A stretch of 64,000 nt of DNA from an uncultured delta proteobacterium (GTDB lineage: Bacteria; Myxococcota; Myxococcia; Myxococcales; Myxococcaceae): the NCBI GenBank assembly GCA_963796055.1, contig CAWCKH010000004.1:3328001-3392000 (forward strand). The letters run 5' to 3'. The notes under the pieces are model-generated. The model did not search any database and was not told where the DNA came from. It was given only the letters and a program-made list of their open reading frames with translations. Position numbers and translations under genes: made by a program. Each line of letters starts with the position of its first letter. The first letter of the stretch is position 1. Shown here in pieces: positions 36,911 through 41,934 of this stretch.

Positions 36911-39400
36911 CTAGACCGAACGTGGCCCTTGCGCCTCCCGGGTCCCGAGCGCCACCCGGCCCAGGTACACCGCCAGGAGGAAGAACAGCACAAGTCCGAG
37001 GCCGATGGACGCCACCGGGTGCGCCTGCGGCGAGTCCCCCACCGCCTCCACCACCCGCGCGAGCCAGCCGGGGCGTCCGGCCAGCCGTGCAGGGACGTCC
37101 AGTGCGTCCATCCATGCTCCACCGGCAGGGATGTGCAGGAGGTTGATCACCACCCCCGCCAGCGAGCCCCCGGCGATGTACCCGGAGGCGAGCAGTGTGC
37201 CCGGGCTCGCCTCGGACTCGGCGCTGGCCCGCCGGCGATCCACCCACCAGCGCACCACCCCGCCCACGAACAGCGGCGCGCTGGTGGACATCGGCAGGTA
37301 CACGCCCACGGCGAACGGCAGCGAGGAGACCCCCGACATCTCCAGCATCAGCGCCAGCGCCACCCCGAGCAGGACCAGGTCCCAGGGCAGCTTGCGAGTG
37401 AGGATCCCGTCGATGATCAGCGAGAAGAGACGGGCCTTCGGCGCCTCGAAGCGGGTGAGCTTCACCCCGTGCACCTCGGAGACTCGGCCCCCGATGCCCG
37501 GGTCCACCACGTACTCGATGTTCCCCGCGGCGTCGCTCAGGTACTTGCCGGTGGGGATCGGCCCGTCGTTGCGGACGTAGCCGACCTGGAGGTGGCGGTC
37601 GCGGGGCTCGCCGATCGTGCCCAGCCGGCCGAGGGGCGTCCGGCTCACCACCGGCTCGACCGGGTGCTCCTCGCGTCTCCGCACCTCCTCGGCCCCGAGT
37701 GACGCCCGGGTCACGTCAGTCCGGAAGGTCCGGATCGCCACCGGTGCGTCGCTCGCATCGAGGCGGAGCTCGAGGCCACGGCCCCACAGCTGCTGGAAGA
37801 GCTCCTCTGTGGTCAGCGTCGACACGGAGAAGGCGCCCCGGACCGGGGCGAAGGGGAACTCGCGCTGCACCACCTGCTCCCGGGAAGGATGCGTCACCCG
37901 CACGCCAGGGTGGCTCTCGGGCACGTTGGCCGTGTCTCCTCGGTTCACCGCCGCCAGCACCGGCCCGATGAACAGCGCCGAGGTCACCACCCCCACGAAG
38001 ATGGCAATCTGCTGACGGCTGGGCGTCGCCCCCACCAGCTGGGCGGTCTTCAAGTCCTGGGCCGTCGTCCCGCCGTTGCTCGCGGCGATCCCGACGATCG
38101 CCGCGGTGGTGAGCGCCATGAAGCGGTCATCCGGGGTCGTCCATCCCAGCAGCAAGTAGACCAGGCAGGTCACCAGGAGGGTGGCGACGGTCATCCCCGA
38201 GATGGGGTTGGAGGAGCTGCCGATCTCTCCGGTGATCCGCGCGCTGACGGTGACGAAGAAGAAGCCGGCCACCACGATCAGCAGCGCCGATACCAGATTC
38301 ACGTGCAGGGGCGGCGCGAGCCAGATCAGCACCACCAGCAGGAGGGAGCCCCCGAGCACGATGCTGATCGGCAGGTCCTGCTCTGTCCGGGGAATGGCCA
38401 CCGCCTGTCCACGCCGGCTGGCGAGGAAGGTCCGGAGCCCGCGACGGAACGCCTCGATGATGCTCGGCATCGAGCGGATCAGGCTGATCAGCCCACCGGT
38501 GGCCACCGCGCCCGCGCCGATGTACAGCACGTAGGCGCGGTGGATCTCGTCCGGCCCCATGTCCCGGATGAGCGTCCCCTCCGGCGACAGCAGGGGGGTG
38601 GTGAGGCCGTCGCCGAAGAAGCGGATCATCGGGATCAGCACCAGGAAGCTGAGCACCCCGCCGGCGAAGGTGATGCCCGCCACCCGCGGGCCGATGATGT
38701 AGCCCACCCCCAGCAGCTCGGGGCTGATCTCCATGGAGACGGAGGCGCCGGGGAAGCCGTGCCGGACCACCGTCCCGTCGGCCAGCCGCTGCACCCAGCC
38801 CAGCAGCCCGCCGACGATCTCCCGCCAGAGCCGCAGCCCCGCGTAGGCCGCCTTGTAGACCGCGCCGATCAGGAAGCCGGCGACCACCAGCCGGGCGGTC
38901 GTCCCGCCGTGCTCGCCCGCCTCGAGCACCTCGGCACAGGCCGTTCCCTCGGGGAAGCGCAGCGCCGCGTGCTCCTCGACCACCAGCCCGTGGCGGAGGG
39001 GGATCATCATCAGCACGCCCAGCACCCCGCCCAGCAGCGCCACCAGCAGGGCGTGGACCAGGTCGAGGTCGTAGCCCATGAACAGGAGCGCCGGGAGCGC
39101 GGTGGCGATGCCGAATGCCAGCGACTCGCCCGCCGAGCCGGTGGTCTGCACCATGCAGTTCTCGAGCACCGAGGAGCGGCCCAGCACCCGGAAGAGCGCG
39201 ATGGACAGCACCGCCACCGGGATGGAGGCCGAGACGGTCAGCCCGACCTTCACCGACAGGTACACCGAGCTGGCGGCGAACATCACCCCCAGCACGCTGC
39301 CCAGCAGGAGGCCACGCACCGTGAGCTCCCGCGGCATCGGGGCGAGCGGCGCGGAGGGCTCGGGCGCCGCGGTCGCTCGGGCGGGGGCGGGTTCTTTCAT
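36911..39400 (-). CDS. OPT-family oligopeptide transporter
   Basis: ELTVRG, KVGLTVSASIP, FPEGTACA, SSSNPISGM, AQDLKT, FAVGVYLP. Confidence 0.93.
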   Translation of the reverse strand: MKEPAPARATAAPEPSAPLAPMPRELTVRGLLLGSVLGVMFAASSVYLSVKVGLTVSASIPVAVLSIALFRVLGRSSVLENCMVQTTGSAGESLAFGIATALPALLFMGYDLDLVHALLVALLGGVLGVLMMIPLRHGLVVEEHAALRFPEGTACAEVLEAGEHGGTTARLVVAGFLIGAVYKAAYAGLRLWREIVGGLLGWVQRLADGTVVRHGFPGASVSMEISPELLGVGYIIGPRVAGITFAGGVLSFLVLIPMIRFFGDGLTTPLLSPEGTLIRDMGPDEIHRAYVLYIGAGAVATGGLISLIRSMPSIIEAFRRGLRTFLASRRGQAVAIPRTEQDLPISIVLGGSLLLVVLIWLAPPLHVNLVSALLIVVAGFFFVTVSARITGEIGSSSNPISGMTVATLLVTCLVYLLLGWTTPDDRFMALTTAAIVGIAASNGGTTAQDLKTAQLVGATPSRQQIAIFVGVVTSALFIGPVLAAVNRGDTANVPESHPGVRVTHPSREQVVQREFPFAPVRGAFSVSTLTTEELFQQLWGRGLELRLDASDAPVAIRTFRTDVTRASLGAEEVRRREEHPVEPVVSRTPLGRLGTIGEPRDRHLQVGYVRNDGPIPTGKYLSDAAGNIEYVVDPGIGGRVSEVHGVKLTRFEAPKARLFSLIIDGILTRKLPWDLVLLGVALALMLEMSGVSSLPFAVGVYLPMSTSAPLFVGGVVRWWVDRRRASAESEASPGTLLASGYIAGGSLAGVVINLLHIPAGGAWMDALDVPARLAGRPGWLARVVEAVGDSPQAHPVASIGLGLVLFFLLAVYLGRVALGTREAQGPRSV

Positions 39401-39481
39401 CCAGGCAGGGCGCCCGTTCTAGGATGGAGCGACCCGTCAAGTCAGCTCTCTCGTTCGTTGGTGGCGATGCGTCTGTTCGCT

Positions 39482-39738
39482 TCGCAGCTCCTCGTGGTTC
39501 GTACTTCGAGGCCTTCAGGCAGGGGACGAGCGAGGGAGCTGCGACGGTTGATCACTCTAGGATTCGCGGGTCGGCGGAGCCGCCGCATGACCGTGATTCG
39601 TCGGGAGGCTTTCTCGCTCTAGCGGCGTGGGTCGGCGGGTCGAGCCCGCCGCCACTTAGAACTGTCGAGAGTCCCTCCTACGTTCCTGGCTCATCCACTG
39701 CCTGCCGGCTTCGAAGCGATGCACGTACGTTGCTCCTT
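39482..39738 (-). ncRNA. Predicted bridge/seek RNA of the IS1111-type element
   Basis: Two stem-internal loop-stem structures whose loops carry GTTCTA and GCTAGA (target) and ATCCTAGA (donor junction); RNA ends approximate. Confidence 0.75.
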
Positions 39739-40834
39739 TCAAGCGGCGCGGGCGATGGCCCAGACAAAGCCGCAGAGCTCGCGAGCCACGGCGACGGCCG
39801 CGACCTGCGAAGGTTTGCCGCGGGAGACGAAGCGGTGGAAGCGCCGGTGCAGCCGCTCCTGGGCTTTCCATGCGTGGGCTACGACCTTTGCATCCTGGCC
39901 CTCCCAGCGCTGTTTGATGACGCCGCTCTGGCGTGGCGGGCGCCGGTAGTGCCAGGCGGCCTCGACCAGTACGCGCCGGGCGTGTCCGTTGCCCGTCTTG
40001 GTGATGCTGCCCCGCCGCTCCTTGGCTCCGCTCGAGCGCTCGCTCGGGACGAGGCCGACGAAAGCCATGAACTGGTCGGGGTGCTCGAACCGCTGGAAGT
40101 CGCGAGATCTCGGCGATGAGGATGACGGCCGAGAGCGTGTCGATGCCGCGCAGGCAGCGGAGCTTCGCAACGGGAGTTTTATAGGGCTCCTTCTCGGCGG
40201 CTGTCGCGAGTTCCTGGTCGAGCGCCTTGAGACGTCCGAGCGTTCCCTCGAGGCGGGCCAAGTACTCGGTGAAGACCGTCTGTGCGATGGGGGCCTCGAA
40301 CGTCTGTTTGCGAAGCCACTTCCAGTGCGGCATCGACCAGTTCTTCTTGCCCTCGGTAAAGCTGCGCCCGTGGCGCAGGAGGAACTTCAGGAGTCGGTCG
40401 CGCTCGCGGATGACGTCCTCGCGCGCATCCTCTCGGCAGCGAACGAGATCCCGCAGCGCCTCCTCGGCCTCGGAGGGGACGCGAATCGAAGTGAGCTCGC
40501 CGGCGCGGTAGAGGCGAGCGAGCTTCTCGGCGTCGCGCCGGTCGGTCTTGACCCGATCGCCGGCGCGCACCGGGATGAGCGAGGGCGCGACCACGTCGCA
40601 TGGGATCTTCATCGCTGCGAGCTGCCGGTAGACCTCGTAGCCGCAACTCCCGGCCTCGTAGCAGGCGCGGACCGCCCCTTCCTTTTTGAGCCTGCCGAAG
40701 CAGCGCTTCAGCTTGAGCGCATCGTTCCGGATCTTCACCGTGGGCCGAGCGCCTCCCCGGTCACCGGCCAGCACCGAGAAGGAAATCGACTCCTTATGCA
40801 CGTCCATTCCGACGGTCAGCGTTGTAGTTTTCAC
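39739..40834 (-). pseudogene. IS110 DEDD recombinase/transposase, frameshifted near 40105
   Basis: GMDVHK, YEAG, KTDRRDA in one frame; GLVPSERSSG, ITKTGN, AVAREL continue in a second frame. Confidence 0.9.
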
Positions 40835-40936
40835 TCGACCGGCTCCTCGTTTGCGGCTCTGGCCGCGGCGTTGCCGAGGCTAATCCGCGCTGAACGAGCG
40901 AGCCGGTCGCTCCATACTGTCTAGCCGACGACGGCA

Positions 40937-40977
40937 GAAAAGAAACGGGCCCGGGTGGCGCCTGCCGCCCCGGGCCC
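40937..40977 (-). terminator. Intrinsic terminator after the sigma32-family gene
   Basis: GGGCCCGGG..CCCGGGCCC stem followed by GTTTCTTTTC on the minus strand. Confidence 0.75.
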
Positions 40978-41007
40978 TCGGAAAGGCCAGACCGGCCGCC
41001 GTGCGGC

Positions 41008-41901
41008 CTACGCCACGGCTTCCGGCTCCATCTCTGCCATCAGCGCCGCCAGCTCGGCCTTGAGCTTGTCCTTGGCGCGGATCTCCAGCTGGCGGGCGCG
41101 CTCGCGGCTGAAGCCGAAGTGCTCGCCCAATTCTTTGAGCGTCATCGGACGCTCGTTCATCACCCGCTGCTCGATGATGAAGCGCTCGCGCGGGTCGAGC
41201 CGGGTCAGCGCCGTGCGGACGCGGGCGTTGATCATCCCCGCCTCCTCCTTGTCCGCCACCTCCTCGTCCTGGCCCACGGCGGACGAGGCCACGAAGTCCA
41301 CGTGGGTGCTGCTGCCGTCCTCGCCCATCGGCGCGTCGAGCGACAGGTCCCGCCCGCCCATCCGCTGCTCCATCTCACGGACCTCGGTGGGCTTCACCCG
41401 CAGCCGCCGGGCGATCTCCTCCACCGGGATGGCGCCGTCGCCGGCGTTGTACTTCTCGAGCTCCCGGCGGGTCCGGGCGAGGCTGAAGAAGAGCTTCCGC
41501 TGGGCCTGGGTGGTCCCCAGCTTCACCAGCGACCACGACTTGAGGATGTAGTTCTGGATGTAGGCGCGGATCCACCACACCGCGTAGGAGATGAGCCGGA
41601 TGCCCTTGTCGGCATCGAACTTCTGCACCGCCTTCATCAGCCCGATGTTTCCCTCCTGGATGAGGTCGGACATCCGGATGCCGTAGGAGCGGTACTCGTA
41701 GGCGACCTTCACCACGAATCTGAGATTTGCGGTGACCAGACGGTGGCCAGCCTGGAGATCTCCCTTGGCGTACCGGCGGGCCAGCTTCTGCTCCTCTTCG
41801 ACCTTGAGCAGCGAGTAGCGGTTGATCTCGGTGAGGTAGAGCGAGAGCGAACCAGGCATGACGGAGTGCTCGGAGGCGAGCTGCATTCTGGACGTCTCCA
41901 T
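41008..41901 (-). CDS. Sigma32/RpoH-family RNA polymerase sigma factor (myxobacterial SigB/C/E group)
   Basis: [23 protein letters not shown], RpoH box [17 protein letters not shown]. Confidence 0.93.
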
Positions 41902-41934
41902 GGGGTTCGGGGTTGCGACCACCCCGGGGCAATG

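What the first reader, a model, noticed from the sequence alone, without database searches (positions are those of the whole stretch)
39543..39678. RNA-guided recombinase: bridge/seek RNA with readable target and donor guides
Seen, on the minus strand downstream of the IS110 transposase. Loop 1 is TCTCG [acaGTTCTAa] GTGG-hairpin-CCAC [gcCGCTAGAg] CGAGA. The empty target rebuilt from the flanks is ..gtcgGCTAGAACggg.. The segment GCTAGA (39618-39623) matches its top strand and GTTCTA (39657-39662) matches its bottom strand, both spanning the core. Loop 2 is GACG..ATCAC [ggtcat] GCGG-hairpin-CCGC [gaATCCTAGA] GTGAT..CGTC. The segment ATCCTAGA (39556-39563) is an exact 8-nt match to the predicted circle junction ccATCCTAGAcag. 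The opposite segment ACGGTCAT (39587-39594) matches the donor bottom strand ACTGTCTA only partly (5/8). Known: IS110-family elements use a bispecific non-coding RNA, located in the 3' end in IS1111-type elements, that pairs with target and donor DNA. Inference: this is a myxobacterial programmable recombinase with a CTAG-containing core, and its specificity can be read from the sequence.
Basis: partly seen in the sequence, partly recalled or inferred. Interest (0 to 1): 0.93.

Follow-up and report, generated by a model that had tools for sequence, protein, structure and literature searches.

The report
Guide RNA of an IS1111-type insertion sequence
The flagged stretch encodes the guide ("bridge" or "seek") RNA of a 1.5-kb jumping gene of the IS110/IS1111 family, and its loops spell out the 8-9 base site where the element inserts; this is a clean new example of a mechanism described in 2024, not a new mechanism.

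Summary
Window 39421-40922 (minus strand) is a 1.5-kb IS1111-group element of the IS110 family, present in five near-identical copies in this genome.

- **Target site.** All copies sit in the same site, GCT-A-GAAC. The uninterrupted site is seen at the orthologous locus of same-genus genomes.
- **RNA position and structure.** The RNA (39543-39678) lies 61 nt after the transposase stop and has two stem-internal-loop modules.
- **Loop 1.** It carries GTTCTA, complementary to the target top strand, and GCTAGA, identical to the top strand.
- **Loop 2.** It carries ATCCTAGA, which equals right end plus left end, the circle junction.
- **Family evidence.** A covariance model built from this one sequence finds the same RNA 3' of the transposase in 67 of 80 homologous loci from many phyla.
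  - 26 of 36 base pairs show compensatory changes.
  - Across 33 distinct guide types, loop-1 guides match their own flanks far better than other elements' flanks (7.97 vs 4.08 of 13; 0 of 20000 permutations).

- The position always shared by donor and target in the family is a single A (AG in most). CTAGA is this element's wider coincidence.
- The tail of the 3' target guide follows the left end, not the target.
- An intact transposase copy exists elsewhere in the genome.
- "Myxobacterial" could not be verified.
- No RNA data exist.

Verdict: real, a new member of a known kind.

The parts
39421..40922 (-). Whole IS1111-type element: 1502 bp in this copy, 1501 bp in the intact copy L003. Ends follow the IS1111 convention (7-nt left extension AGACAGT, 3-nt right extension CCT). 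The true crossover is ambiguous within the shared CTAGA.
   Evidence: Five copies with diverging flanks. Empty orthologous sites in relatives. The 7-bp left extension is mentioned in PMC11187229 section 7.
40920..40924 (-). Left copy of CTAGA, shared by target and element. The family-invariant A is at 40922.
39418..39422 (-). Right copy of CTAGA. The family-invariant A is at 39420. The right target flank GAAC starts at 39419.
40905..40915 (-). Left subterminal inverted repeat, ATGGAGCGACC.
   Evidence: Perfect 11-nt complement of 39424-39434 (h=0).
39424..39434 (-). Right subterminal inverted repeat, GGTCGCTCCAT.
39739..40834 (-). DEDD transposase gene (GTG start at 40834, stop at 39741-39739). 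It is split in this copy by one extra base near 40104.
   Evidence: ORFs 39656..40834 and 39739..40170. Copy L003 is intact at 364 aa. Pfam and NCBIfam matches. The extra base is absent from contigs of 4 runs.
39543..39678 (-). Bridge/seek RNA: two stem-internal-loop-stem-hairpin modules.
   Evidence: Model R1 and its hits. Base-pair covariation. No Rfam match.
39656..39665 (-). Loop 1, 5' side, ACAGTTCTAA. This is the right-target guide, complementary to the target top strand T-A-GAAC(TGT).
   Evidence: Right flanks GAACGGG, GAACTGT, GAACTTT, GAACAGC, GAACTGC. Family test: own flank 4.70 of 7 against 2.16 for other elements.
39617..39626 (-). Loop 1, 3' side, GCCGCTAGAG. This is the left-target guide (GCT + A), followed by a 3-nt tail GAG that follows the left end GAC.
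   Evidence: Left flanks all end in GCT + A. Family test: 3.27 of 6 against 1.92. The tail follows the left end, not the right flank.
39556..39565 (-). Loop 2, 3' side, GAATCCTAGA. This is the donor guide: last 5 nt of the right end (ATCCT) + A + first 2 nt of the left end (GA).
   Evidence: Three donor-end variants co-vary with this loop in elements whose ends were fixed from multiple copies.
39587..39594 (-). Loop 2, 5' side, ACGGTCAT. GTCAT is conserved in the family. It is only partly complementary to the left-end start GACAGT.
   Evidence: 5 of 8. Conserved TGTCAT/GTCAT in relatives. Its role is not settled.
39435..39440 (-). TTGACG, a -35-like hexamer in the right end. Only in a circle would it lie 17 nt from CAGTAT (40919-40914) in the left end.
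   Evidence: TTGAC is present in 29 of 32 distinct end pairs, and a -10-like hexamer at 16-19 nt in 25 of 32. No internal sigma-70-like promoter was found.

Best explanation
Window 39421-40922 (minus strand) is one of five copies of an IS1111-group insertion sequence. Its 318-nt 3' non-coding region encodes a bispecific guide RNA (bridge RNA or long seekRNA).

**Inferred from the published IS1111/IS110 systems.** The element excises as a circle. Joining right and left ends builds a promoter (TTGACG-17 nt-CAGTAT) that transcribes the transposase and the RNA. The RNA is processed and bound by the DEDD transposase.

**Shown here by sequence and covariation.**
- Module 1 presents two guides in one internal loop. 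The 5' side (ACAGTTCTA) pairs with the target top strand T-A-GAAC(TGT). [quoted passage not shown] Together they specify GCTAGAAC plus weaker positions.
- Module 2 presents ATCCT-A-GA, which equals the end of the right end, the shared A, and the first bases of the left end. This is the donor (circle junction) site.

**Inferred.** Recombination occurs at the shared A/AG without target duplication.

**Status in this genome.** The window copy has a 1-nt frame disruption, but its RNA and ends are identical to those of the copy with an intact 364-aa transposase. It could therefore be moved in trans.
For: **Family assignment.**
- PF01548 and PF02371 match. NF033542 'IS110 family RNA-guided transposase' scores 253 bits against a cutoff of 140.
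- IS1111 traits: 11-nt subterminal inverted repeats, a 318-nt right end against an 87-nt left end, and the motif GLVPSERSSG.

**Target in this genome.**
- Five copies; 4 of 4 left flanks end in GCTAGA and 5 of 5 right flanks start CTAGAAC, while the sequence outside differs.
- Empty orthologous sites are seen in same-genus genomes.
- Against the guide-predicted GAACTGT, the right flanks match at 5, 7, 6, 5 and 6 of 7.
- There are 17 unoccupied GCTAGAAC sites. T at the fifth right-flank position occurs in 3 of 5 occupied sites against 2 of 17 unoccupied.

**RNA family.**
- Model R1 hits 67 of 80 homologous loci at E <= 0.001, on the transposase strand, 3' of the gene.
- The family model R2 adds 6 more loci. 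It also hits ISEc45-type elements of E. coli and Klebsiella plasmids.

**Structure.**
- 88.6% of cells are paired, against 72.4% in shuffles (0 of 500 shuffles reach the observed value).
- 26 of 36 pairs have changes on both sides.
- Sliding the partner columns gives at most 48% paired.
- G-U pairs fit the transposase strand.

**Guide/flank covariation.** With 33 guide types, own flank scores 7.97 of 13 against 4.08 for other elements; 0 of 20000 permutations reach this; 20 of 33 guide pairs score highest on their own flank.

**Donor loop.** Right ends ATATC-A, ATGGA-A and ATCCT-A go with loops ATATCA, ATGGAA and ATCCTA in groups whose ends were fixed from multiple copies.

**Junction promoter.** It is conserved across the family.

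**Guide order.** It is as published for IS1111 seekRNAs (PMC11187229, section 9).
Against: - No RNA evidence. No RNA run holds the stretch, and no promoter or terminator was found for the RNA in the integrated copy.
- The 5' side of loop 2 matches the left end only 5 of 8, and in some relatives (the L047 group) hardly at all.
- Helix 6 (ATCAC/GTGAT) is paired in only 63.9% of cells.
- Four of five copies carry a frame-breaking 1-nt insertion in the assembly.
- The alignment used for pair counts was fitted to the model.
- Related elements share guides and targets by descent, so the permutation figures overstate independence.
- In one search the right-end junction was located with the loop-2 guide. 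The 33 of 33 donor agreement is therefore circular. Only the multi-copy groups are independent.
- The element was not found by DNA search in the 80 other genomes of the same family that were searched, so there are no extra insertion sites.
Confidence: 0.87

Rival explanations
1. Only module 1 (about 75 nt) is the working guide, equivalent to the short seekRNA. Module 2 is a scaffold or processing element, and its match to the end junction does not reflect donor binding. End recognition would be done by the protein on the subterminal inverted repeats.
For: The short 70-100 nt seekRNA was reported sufficient for ISEc11 movement, and the role of the long form was left open (PMC11187229, Discussion read). 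Loop 2's 5' side is poorly complementary to the left end (5 of 8). Most relatives share the same loop-2 sequence ATATCAG, which could be plain conservation.
Against: Three different right-end termini go with three matching loop-2 sequences in groups whose ends were defined from multiple copies. This includes the present element, which departs from the family consensus in both places. Donor-binding loops are documented for IS110-family bridge RNAs and were predicted for IS1111 members (PMC11208160, passages read).
Confidence: 0.07
2. The structured region is a 3' UTR element (terminator, stabiliser or translational regulator of the transposase). The matches to target and ends are by-products of past recombination at the DNA level.
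For: No RNA data exist. The region is GC-rich and folds strongly.
Against: Guides change together with the flanks in 33 types while the helices keep pairing through compensatory changes. The guides sit in internal loops, not in stems. The target-matching 6-mers occur nowhere else in the element.
Confidence: 0.02
3. The system is of the RNA-guided kind but is dead in this genome. The copies are fossils and the RNA gene no longer acts.
For: Four of five assembled copies have frame-breaking 1-nt insertions. The element was not found in the 80 related genomes searched.
Against: The five copies differ at only about 8 alignment columns, apart from the contig-end truncation of L005, and their RNAs are identical. 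One copy has the full 364-aa frame with the catalytic motifs. Contigs of 4 runs (one study) show the intact frame at 40104. The insertions sit in or next to GATCT, which suggests assembly error.
Confidence: 0.04

Closest known systems
IS1111-group seekRNA systems (ISEc11, ISPa11, ISKpn4; Siddiquee et al. 2024, PMC11187229; sections 6-9, 13, 14 read)
   Same: - DEDD transposase with the GL-P----S(t)G motif.
- Subterminal inverted repeats with a 7-nt left extension.
- Long non-coding region after the gene.
- No target duplication.
- Two short RNA segments matching both target strands and overlapping at the insertion point, with the top-strand-complementary one 5'.
- A promoter formed only at the circle junction.
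- A total RNA length here (about 136-155 nt) like their 'long seekRNA' (145-170 nt).
   Different: - Other target (GCTAGAAC against, for example, GTGAAAATACTG for ISEc11).
- Their sequences were not at hand, so RNA homology to those three elements was not tested.
- They left the role of the long form open. Here the second module reads as a donor loop.
IS621 bridge RNA (IS110 group; Durrant et al. 2024, PMC11208160, and Hiraizumi et al. 2024, PMC11208158; passages read)
   Same: - One RNA with a target-binding loop followed by a donor-binding loop.
- Each loop has one guide per DNA strand, overlapping at a short core.
- Extra guide bases pair with the non-cognate DNA (handshake guides).
- Right-guide extension improves matching.
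   Different: - The RNA lies in the right end after the gene, not in the left end.
- The order of guides within a loop is reversed.
- The shared position is A or AG, not CT.
- The non-cognate tail sits next to the left-target guide and would pair with the bottom strand.
- The subterminal repeat is 11 nt rather than 2-3 nt.
ISEc45-type elements of E. coli and Klebsiella (annotation 'IS110-like element ISEc45 family transposase')
   Same: - About 44% protein identity.
- Same RNA scaffold (R2 E about 1e-10).
- Same reading rule: 5' guide rc AATTCTTTTT equals A + right flank; 3' guide CACGT-A-GA equals left flank + A + left end; donor loop ATAAGA-G equals right end + A + G.
   Different: - Different guides and target. 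The hits overlap features annotated as IS66-family tnpC.
- AT-rich scaffold.
- Not hit by the single-sequence model R1.

Membership tests
IS110 family (DEDD transposases) | [quoted passage not shown] | tested here: met
   PF01548 E 6.5e-17 and PF02371 E 1.7e-20. NF033542 scores 253 bits against a cutoff of 140. Tested on the intact copy L003:1824-2918.
IS1111 group | Subterminal inverted repeats of 7-17 bp | tested here: met
   ATGGAGCGACC (40915-40905) and GGTCGCTCCAT (39434-39424), 11 nt with no mismatch.
IS1111 group | Longer non-coding region downstream of the transposase gene | tested here: met
   Right end 318 nt (39738-39421) against left end 87 nt (40921-40835).
IS1111 group | C-terminal motif GL-P----S(t)G | tested here: met
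   GLVPSERSSG is read in the 364-aa product. The motif is as given in PMC11187229 section 6.
IS1111 group | Site- and orientation-specific insertion without target duplication | tested here: met
   The same site and orientation relative to GCTAGAAC in 5 of 5 copies. Empty orthologous sites contain the motif once.
Bridge / seek RNA | Conserved structured RNA in the non-coding end, on the transposase strand | tested here: met
   67 of 80 loci with R1 and 73 of 80 with R1 plus R2. 26 of 36 pairs have compensatory changes and 88.6% of cells are paired.
Bridge / seek RNA | [quoted passage not shown] | tested here: met
   Window. Family: own flanks 7.97 of 13 against 4.08 for other elements, 0 of 20000 permutations.
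Bridge / seek RNA | Second loop that matches the donor (right end-left end junction) on both strands | tested here: inconclusive
   The 3' side is an exact 8 nt and co-varies in three end variants. The 5' side matches 5 of 8 here and weakly or not at all in some relatives.
Bridge / seek RNA | RNA is expressed, bound by the transposase and needed for transposition; changing the guides changes the target | not testable with these tools
   No RNA run holds the stretch. This needs bench work.
Rfam families | Match to a curated RNA family | tested here: not met
   0 matches at E <= 10 in 39300-41100.

The most novel reading that the evidence does not exclude
This widespread IS1111 clade, found here in many phyla including ISEc45-type and Leptospira elements, may use a recombination geometry that differs from IS621.
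- Donor and target need share only one A (AG in most).
- The left-target guide carries a 3-nt tail that reads the first bases of the left end, i.e. the bottom strand of the non-cognate DNA. The tail equals the left-end base in 10 of 10, 24 of 28 and 17 of 28 informative types, and the target base in 0, 0 and 8.
- This suggests a handshake on the opposite strand and perhaps a reversed order of strand exchange.
- The present element would be a natural case in which both loops were re-written relative to the family consensus (donor ATATCA to ATCCTA, with the matching right-end change).
Probability: 0.3. Interest if true: 0.5.

Novelty: new member of a known kind. Interest (0 to 1): 0.3.

Why it matters
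- It is a fully readable natural example of an IS1111-type RNA-guided recombinase from an uncultured soil bacterium with 70.7% G+C. The guides, the target, five occupied sites, 17 empty sites and an intact enzyme copy are all in one genome.
- It is a ready-made candidate for testing bridge recombination in a high-GC context.
- The family alignment built here (about 50 distinct RNAs) gives explicit reading rules for this clade: which loop positions read the right flank, the left flank, the shared A, the right end and the left end.
- These rules could be used to annotate target sites of many unannotated elements.
- It does not change the current picture of how these elements work.

Tried and rejected
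- **Rfam scan of 39300-41100:** no match at E <= 10.
- **Minimum-energy fold:** it pairs the two loop-1 guides through CTAG. It was not used as the structure.
- **Longest-inverted-repeat heuristic for the ends:** it picked spurious repeats, also in the window. It was replaced by a donor-guide anchor plus the subterminal repeat at a fixed offset.
- **Sixth CCATCCTAGAAC at G000:C7:21711:** no further similarity to the element (E 0.17), so it is taken as chance.
- **Sequencing runs:** no RNA holder is listed. Contigs of X1-X4 show no joints (no circle junction, no empty site).
- **Promoter scan:** no sigma-70-like site in 39350-41000.
- **Taxonomy:**
  - The atlas look-up of the neighbouring RpoH-like sigma factor gave Pseudomonadota and Thermodesulfobacteriota as the commonest taxa.
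  - The genome's family holds genomes of 2-12 Mb.
  - 'Myxobacterial' is neither confirmed nor refuted.
- **Earlier findings:** nothing was on record.
- **DNA search for the element:** not found in 80 other genomes of the same family.
- **Model R1 on three enterobacterial plasmid loci:** no hit. Only the family model R2 hit them.
- **Holophagaceae groups L020-22 and L025-28:** the 200 nt upstream of the gene are identical among copies, and the left junction does not fit the guide. These were left unresolved and excluded from the left-flank test.
- **Rows dropped:** 63 elements had a right junction, giving 46 distinct guide pairs. Thirteen pairs were dropped for more than 2 mismatches in the subterminal repeat, no A at the left junction, or short flanks.

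Full report
**What is there**

On the minus strand, window 40922-39421 is a 1.5-kb insertion sequence.
- It carries a transposase gene (GTG at 40834, stop at 39741-39739).
- The left non-coding end is 87 nt and the right non-coding end is 318 nt.
- The subterminal inverted repeats are 11 nt: ATGGAGCGACC at 40915-40905 and GGTCGCTCCAT at 39434-39424.
- The product of the intact copy matches PF01548 and PF02371. It also matches NCBIfam NF033542, named 'IS110 family RNA-guided transposase', at 253 bits against a cutoff of 140.
- It contains GLVPSERSSG, which fits the GL-P----S(t)G motif given for IS1111 transposases (PMC11187229, section 6 read).

**Copies and target**

The genome is 5.53 Mb in 7 contigs, with 68-72% G+C per contig. 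It holds five copies and no other relative of the transposase or of the RNA.
- The copies differ at about 8 alignment columns, apart from the contig-end truncation of L005.
- All four readable left flanks end in GCTAGA. All five right flanks begin CTAGAAC. Beyond that they differ.
- At the window's own locus, same-genus genomes have the uninterrupted site..CTCGGGTAGAACGGGCG.. in L090 and L094, and ..GGTTTGCTAGAACGGGCGG.. in L091. The rebuilt target and the absence of a duplication are therefore confirmed.
- The genome has 17 further, unoccupied GCTAGAAC sites.

**The RNA in the window**

All strings and coordinates of the finding are correct. The region forms two similar modules: an outer stem, an internal loop, a 4-bp stem, a hairpin, and a 3-nt GAC bulge.
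- Loop 1 has ACAGTTCTAA on its 5' side and GCCGCTAGAG on its 3' side.
- Loop 2 has GGTCAT on its 5' side and GAATCCTAGA on its 3' side.
- Within the element interior, target 6-mers occur only in loop 1 and the junction 8-mer only in loop 2. All three kinds of match together occur in 3 of 5000 shuffles of the non-coding region.

**Family evidence for the RNA**

- A search with the transposase found 80 homologous loci (42-55% identity) in many phyla.
- A covariance model built from the window sequence with the hand-drawn structure (R1) found the RNA at E <= 0.001 in 67 of these 80 loci, on the transposase strand and 3' of the gene. Two further copies lay on the opposite strand and belong to neighbouring elements.
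- A family model (R2) confirmed five weak hits and added L075, giving 73 of 80. Six of the 7 remaining loci were also searched with R2 without a hit and are mostly truncated (L085 was not).
- On 54 distinct sequences:
  - 88.6% of cells pair, against 72.4% in shuffles (0 of 500 reach the observed value).
  - 26 of 36 pairs change on both sides.
  - Sliding the partner columns gives at most 48%.
  - Helix 6 is the weakest, at 63.9% paired.
  - The alignment was fitted to the model, which favours the structure somewhat.
- Rfam has no match.

**Do the guides follow the flanks?**

Ends were fixed without using loop 1. The right junction came from the loop-2 6-mer downstream of a TTGA motif. The left junction came from the subterminal repeat at a fixed 7-nt offset. 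These positions were checked against multi-copy groups, where the divergence of flanks gives the ends directly: L016/18/19, L009/10, L054-61, L032/33 and L047/48/52.

Of 63 elements with a right junction there were 46 distinct guide pairs, and 33 were usable on both sides.

| Test | Own element | Other elements |
|---|---|---|
| Right flank (7 nt) vs 5' guide | 4.70 | 2.16 |
| Left flank (6 nt) vs 3' guide | 3.27 | 1.92 |
| Both (13 nt) | 7.97 | 4.08 |

- 0 of 20000 permutations reach the own-element values.
- 20 of 33 guide pairs score highest on their own flank.
- Kin share guides and targets, so these figures overstate independence. However, near-identical scaffolds with different guides and correspondingly different flanks (L016, L011, L009, L014) make the same point.

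**Reading rules for the clade**

Write the left junction as LT-A-LE and the right junction as RE-A-RT.
- **The A.** It is present at the left junction in 60 of the 63 elements and in the donor loop of all 33 usable types (selected in part for A at the left junction). G follows it in the left end of all 33 types (LE starts GAC 25, GTC 4, GAT 2, GAA 2) and in the target in 23 of 33.
- **The 5' side of loop 1.** It is complementary to (LT-1)-A-RT1..7.
- **The 3' side of loop 1.** It equals LT-6..-1, then A, then three bases.

| Tail position | Informative types | Tail = left-end base | Tail = target base |
|---|---|---|---|
| 1 | 10 | 10 | 0 |
| 2 | 28 | 24 | 0 |
| 3 | 28 | 17 | 8 |

- GAT, GTC and GAA left ends go with GAT, GTC and GAA tails in three lineages.
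- This resembles the handshake guides of IS621, which pair with the non-cognate DNA after strand exchange (PMC11208158, passages read). Here, however, the tail sits next to the left-target guide.
- **The 3' side of loop 2.** It equals RE-5..-1, A, LE1(-2).

In this element the rules give:
- target GCT-A-GAAC(TGT);
- right flanks matching GAACTGT at 5, 7, 6, 5 and 6 of 7;
- T at RT5 in 3 of 5 occupied sites against 2 of 17 empty sites.

**Donor loop**

- Most relatives have right end ..CATATC-A and loop ATATCA. The L047 group has ..CATGGA-A and ATGGAA. This element has ..CATCCT-A and ATCCTA.
- In all three, the ends are known from multiple copies. The 33 of 33 agreement is circular and is not counted.
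- The 5' side (GTCAT, conserved) is complementary to the left-end start only in part: 5 of 8 here, and poorly in the L047 group. The fourth guide is therefore not established.

**Core**

- Only the A is always shared. In 10 of 33 types the base after it differs between left end (G) and target (A).
- In this element the identity happens to extend to CTAGA. The crossover cannot be placed more precisely from sequence.
- An AG recombination point is reported for ISPpu9 (PMC12288879, passages read) and CT for IS621 (PMC11208160).

**Expression**

- No sigma-70-like promoter was found inside the element.
- The right end carries TTGACG (39440-39435). In a circle this would lie 17 nt from CAGTAT (40919-40914).
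- TTGAC is present in 29 of 32 distinct end pairs, and a -10-like hexamer with A2 and T6 at 16-19 nt in 25 of 32.
- This fits the published junction promoter that co-transcribes the transposase and the long RNA (PMC11187229, sections 7, 8 and Discussion).
- No RNA run holds the stretch, so expression is inferred.

**State of the copies**

- The window copy has one extra base near 40104 (GAGATCT[C]GCG).
- L004 and L005 have GAGAT[T]CTGCG.
- L002 has GGGAT[T]CTCG elsewhere.
- L003 is intact.
- Contigs of four soil-metagenome runs of one study lack the base at 40104.
- All the insertions lie in or next to GATCT. This makes assembly error plausible, but contigs collapse repeats and cannot settle it.

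**Relation to known systems**

- The element meets every tested defining feature of the IS1111 group and of a bridge/seek RNA, except the second donor guide (inconclusive) and expression or binding (not testable).
- Bridge RNAs were predicted in 93% of IS1111 entries of ISfinder (PMC11208160, section 12 passage), and seekRNAs were shown experimentally for four IS1111 members (PMC11187229, abstract).
- The same scaffold and rules hold in ISEc45-type elements of enterobacteria.
- It is therefore a new member of a known kind.
- Supplementary tables of the two 2024 papers were not consulted. They may already list relatives of this clade.

Noticed in passing
window 40100-40110; L002, L004, L005 equivalents: Four of five copies carry different 1-nt insertions, all in or beside GATCT (GAGATCT[C]GCG, GAGAT[T]CTGCG twice, GGGAT[T]CTCG). 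Contigs of four runs show no extra base at 40104. Systematic assembly error at a possibly methylated motif is suspected.
   Followed up: partly
window 39400-39420 and 40923-40985: The element sits about 15 nt after a terminator-like hairpin plus T-run that follows the RpoH-like sigma gene (41008-41922). It lies 20 nt before the ATG (39400) of an 829-aa membrane-protein ORF (not scanned here; it looked to me like an OPT-type transporter). It may cut that gene off from upstream signals.
   Followed up: no
G000 contig C1 (349,641 bp), both ends: The contig ends are inverted repeats of about 1.6 kb (99.9% identical, offset by one base). This could be a repeat at both ends, a linear replicon, or an assembly effect.
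   Followed up: partly
L033:1480-1500 (Nitrospiraceae MAG): The left flank of this copy ends in ..ACCACATATCAG, which looks like the terminus of a right end. The element appears to abut a remnant or related right end.
   Followed up: no
L020-L022 and L025-L028 (Holophagaceae MAGs), 1300-1500: At least 200 nt upstream of the transposase are identical among copies, and the left junction does not fit the loop-1 guide. The right flanks are also alike. The elements may be longer or nested in another repeat.
   Followed up: partly
L043:2716-2841, L050:2715-2838, L038:2622-2809 (Leptospira): In two Leptospira copies the RNA hit lacks most of module 1 (the target loop) but keeps module 2. A third copy has a 64-nt insertion in the module-1 hairpin.
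   Followed up: no
L101-L103 (E. coli and Klebsiella plasmids); ISEc45-type elements occur in 3216 of 5426 complete E. coli genomes (any match). The listed hits overlap features annotated as IS66-family tnpC. Their guides read AACACGT-A-ATTCTTTTT.
   Followed up: partly
L081:3748-3888 (-), L085:473-613 (-): A second copy of the RNA lies on the opposite strand within 1-2 kb of another element, so there are neighbouring elements in inverted orientation. L085's own transposase has no RNA hit downstream.
   Followed up: no
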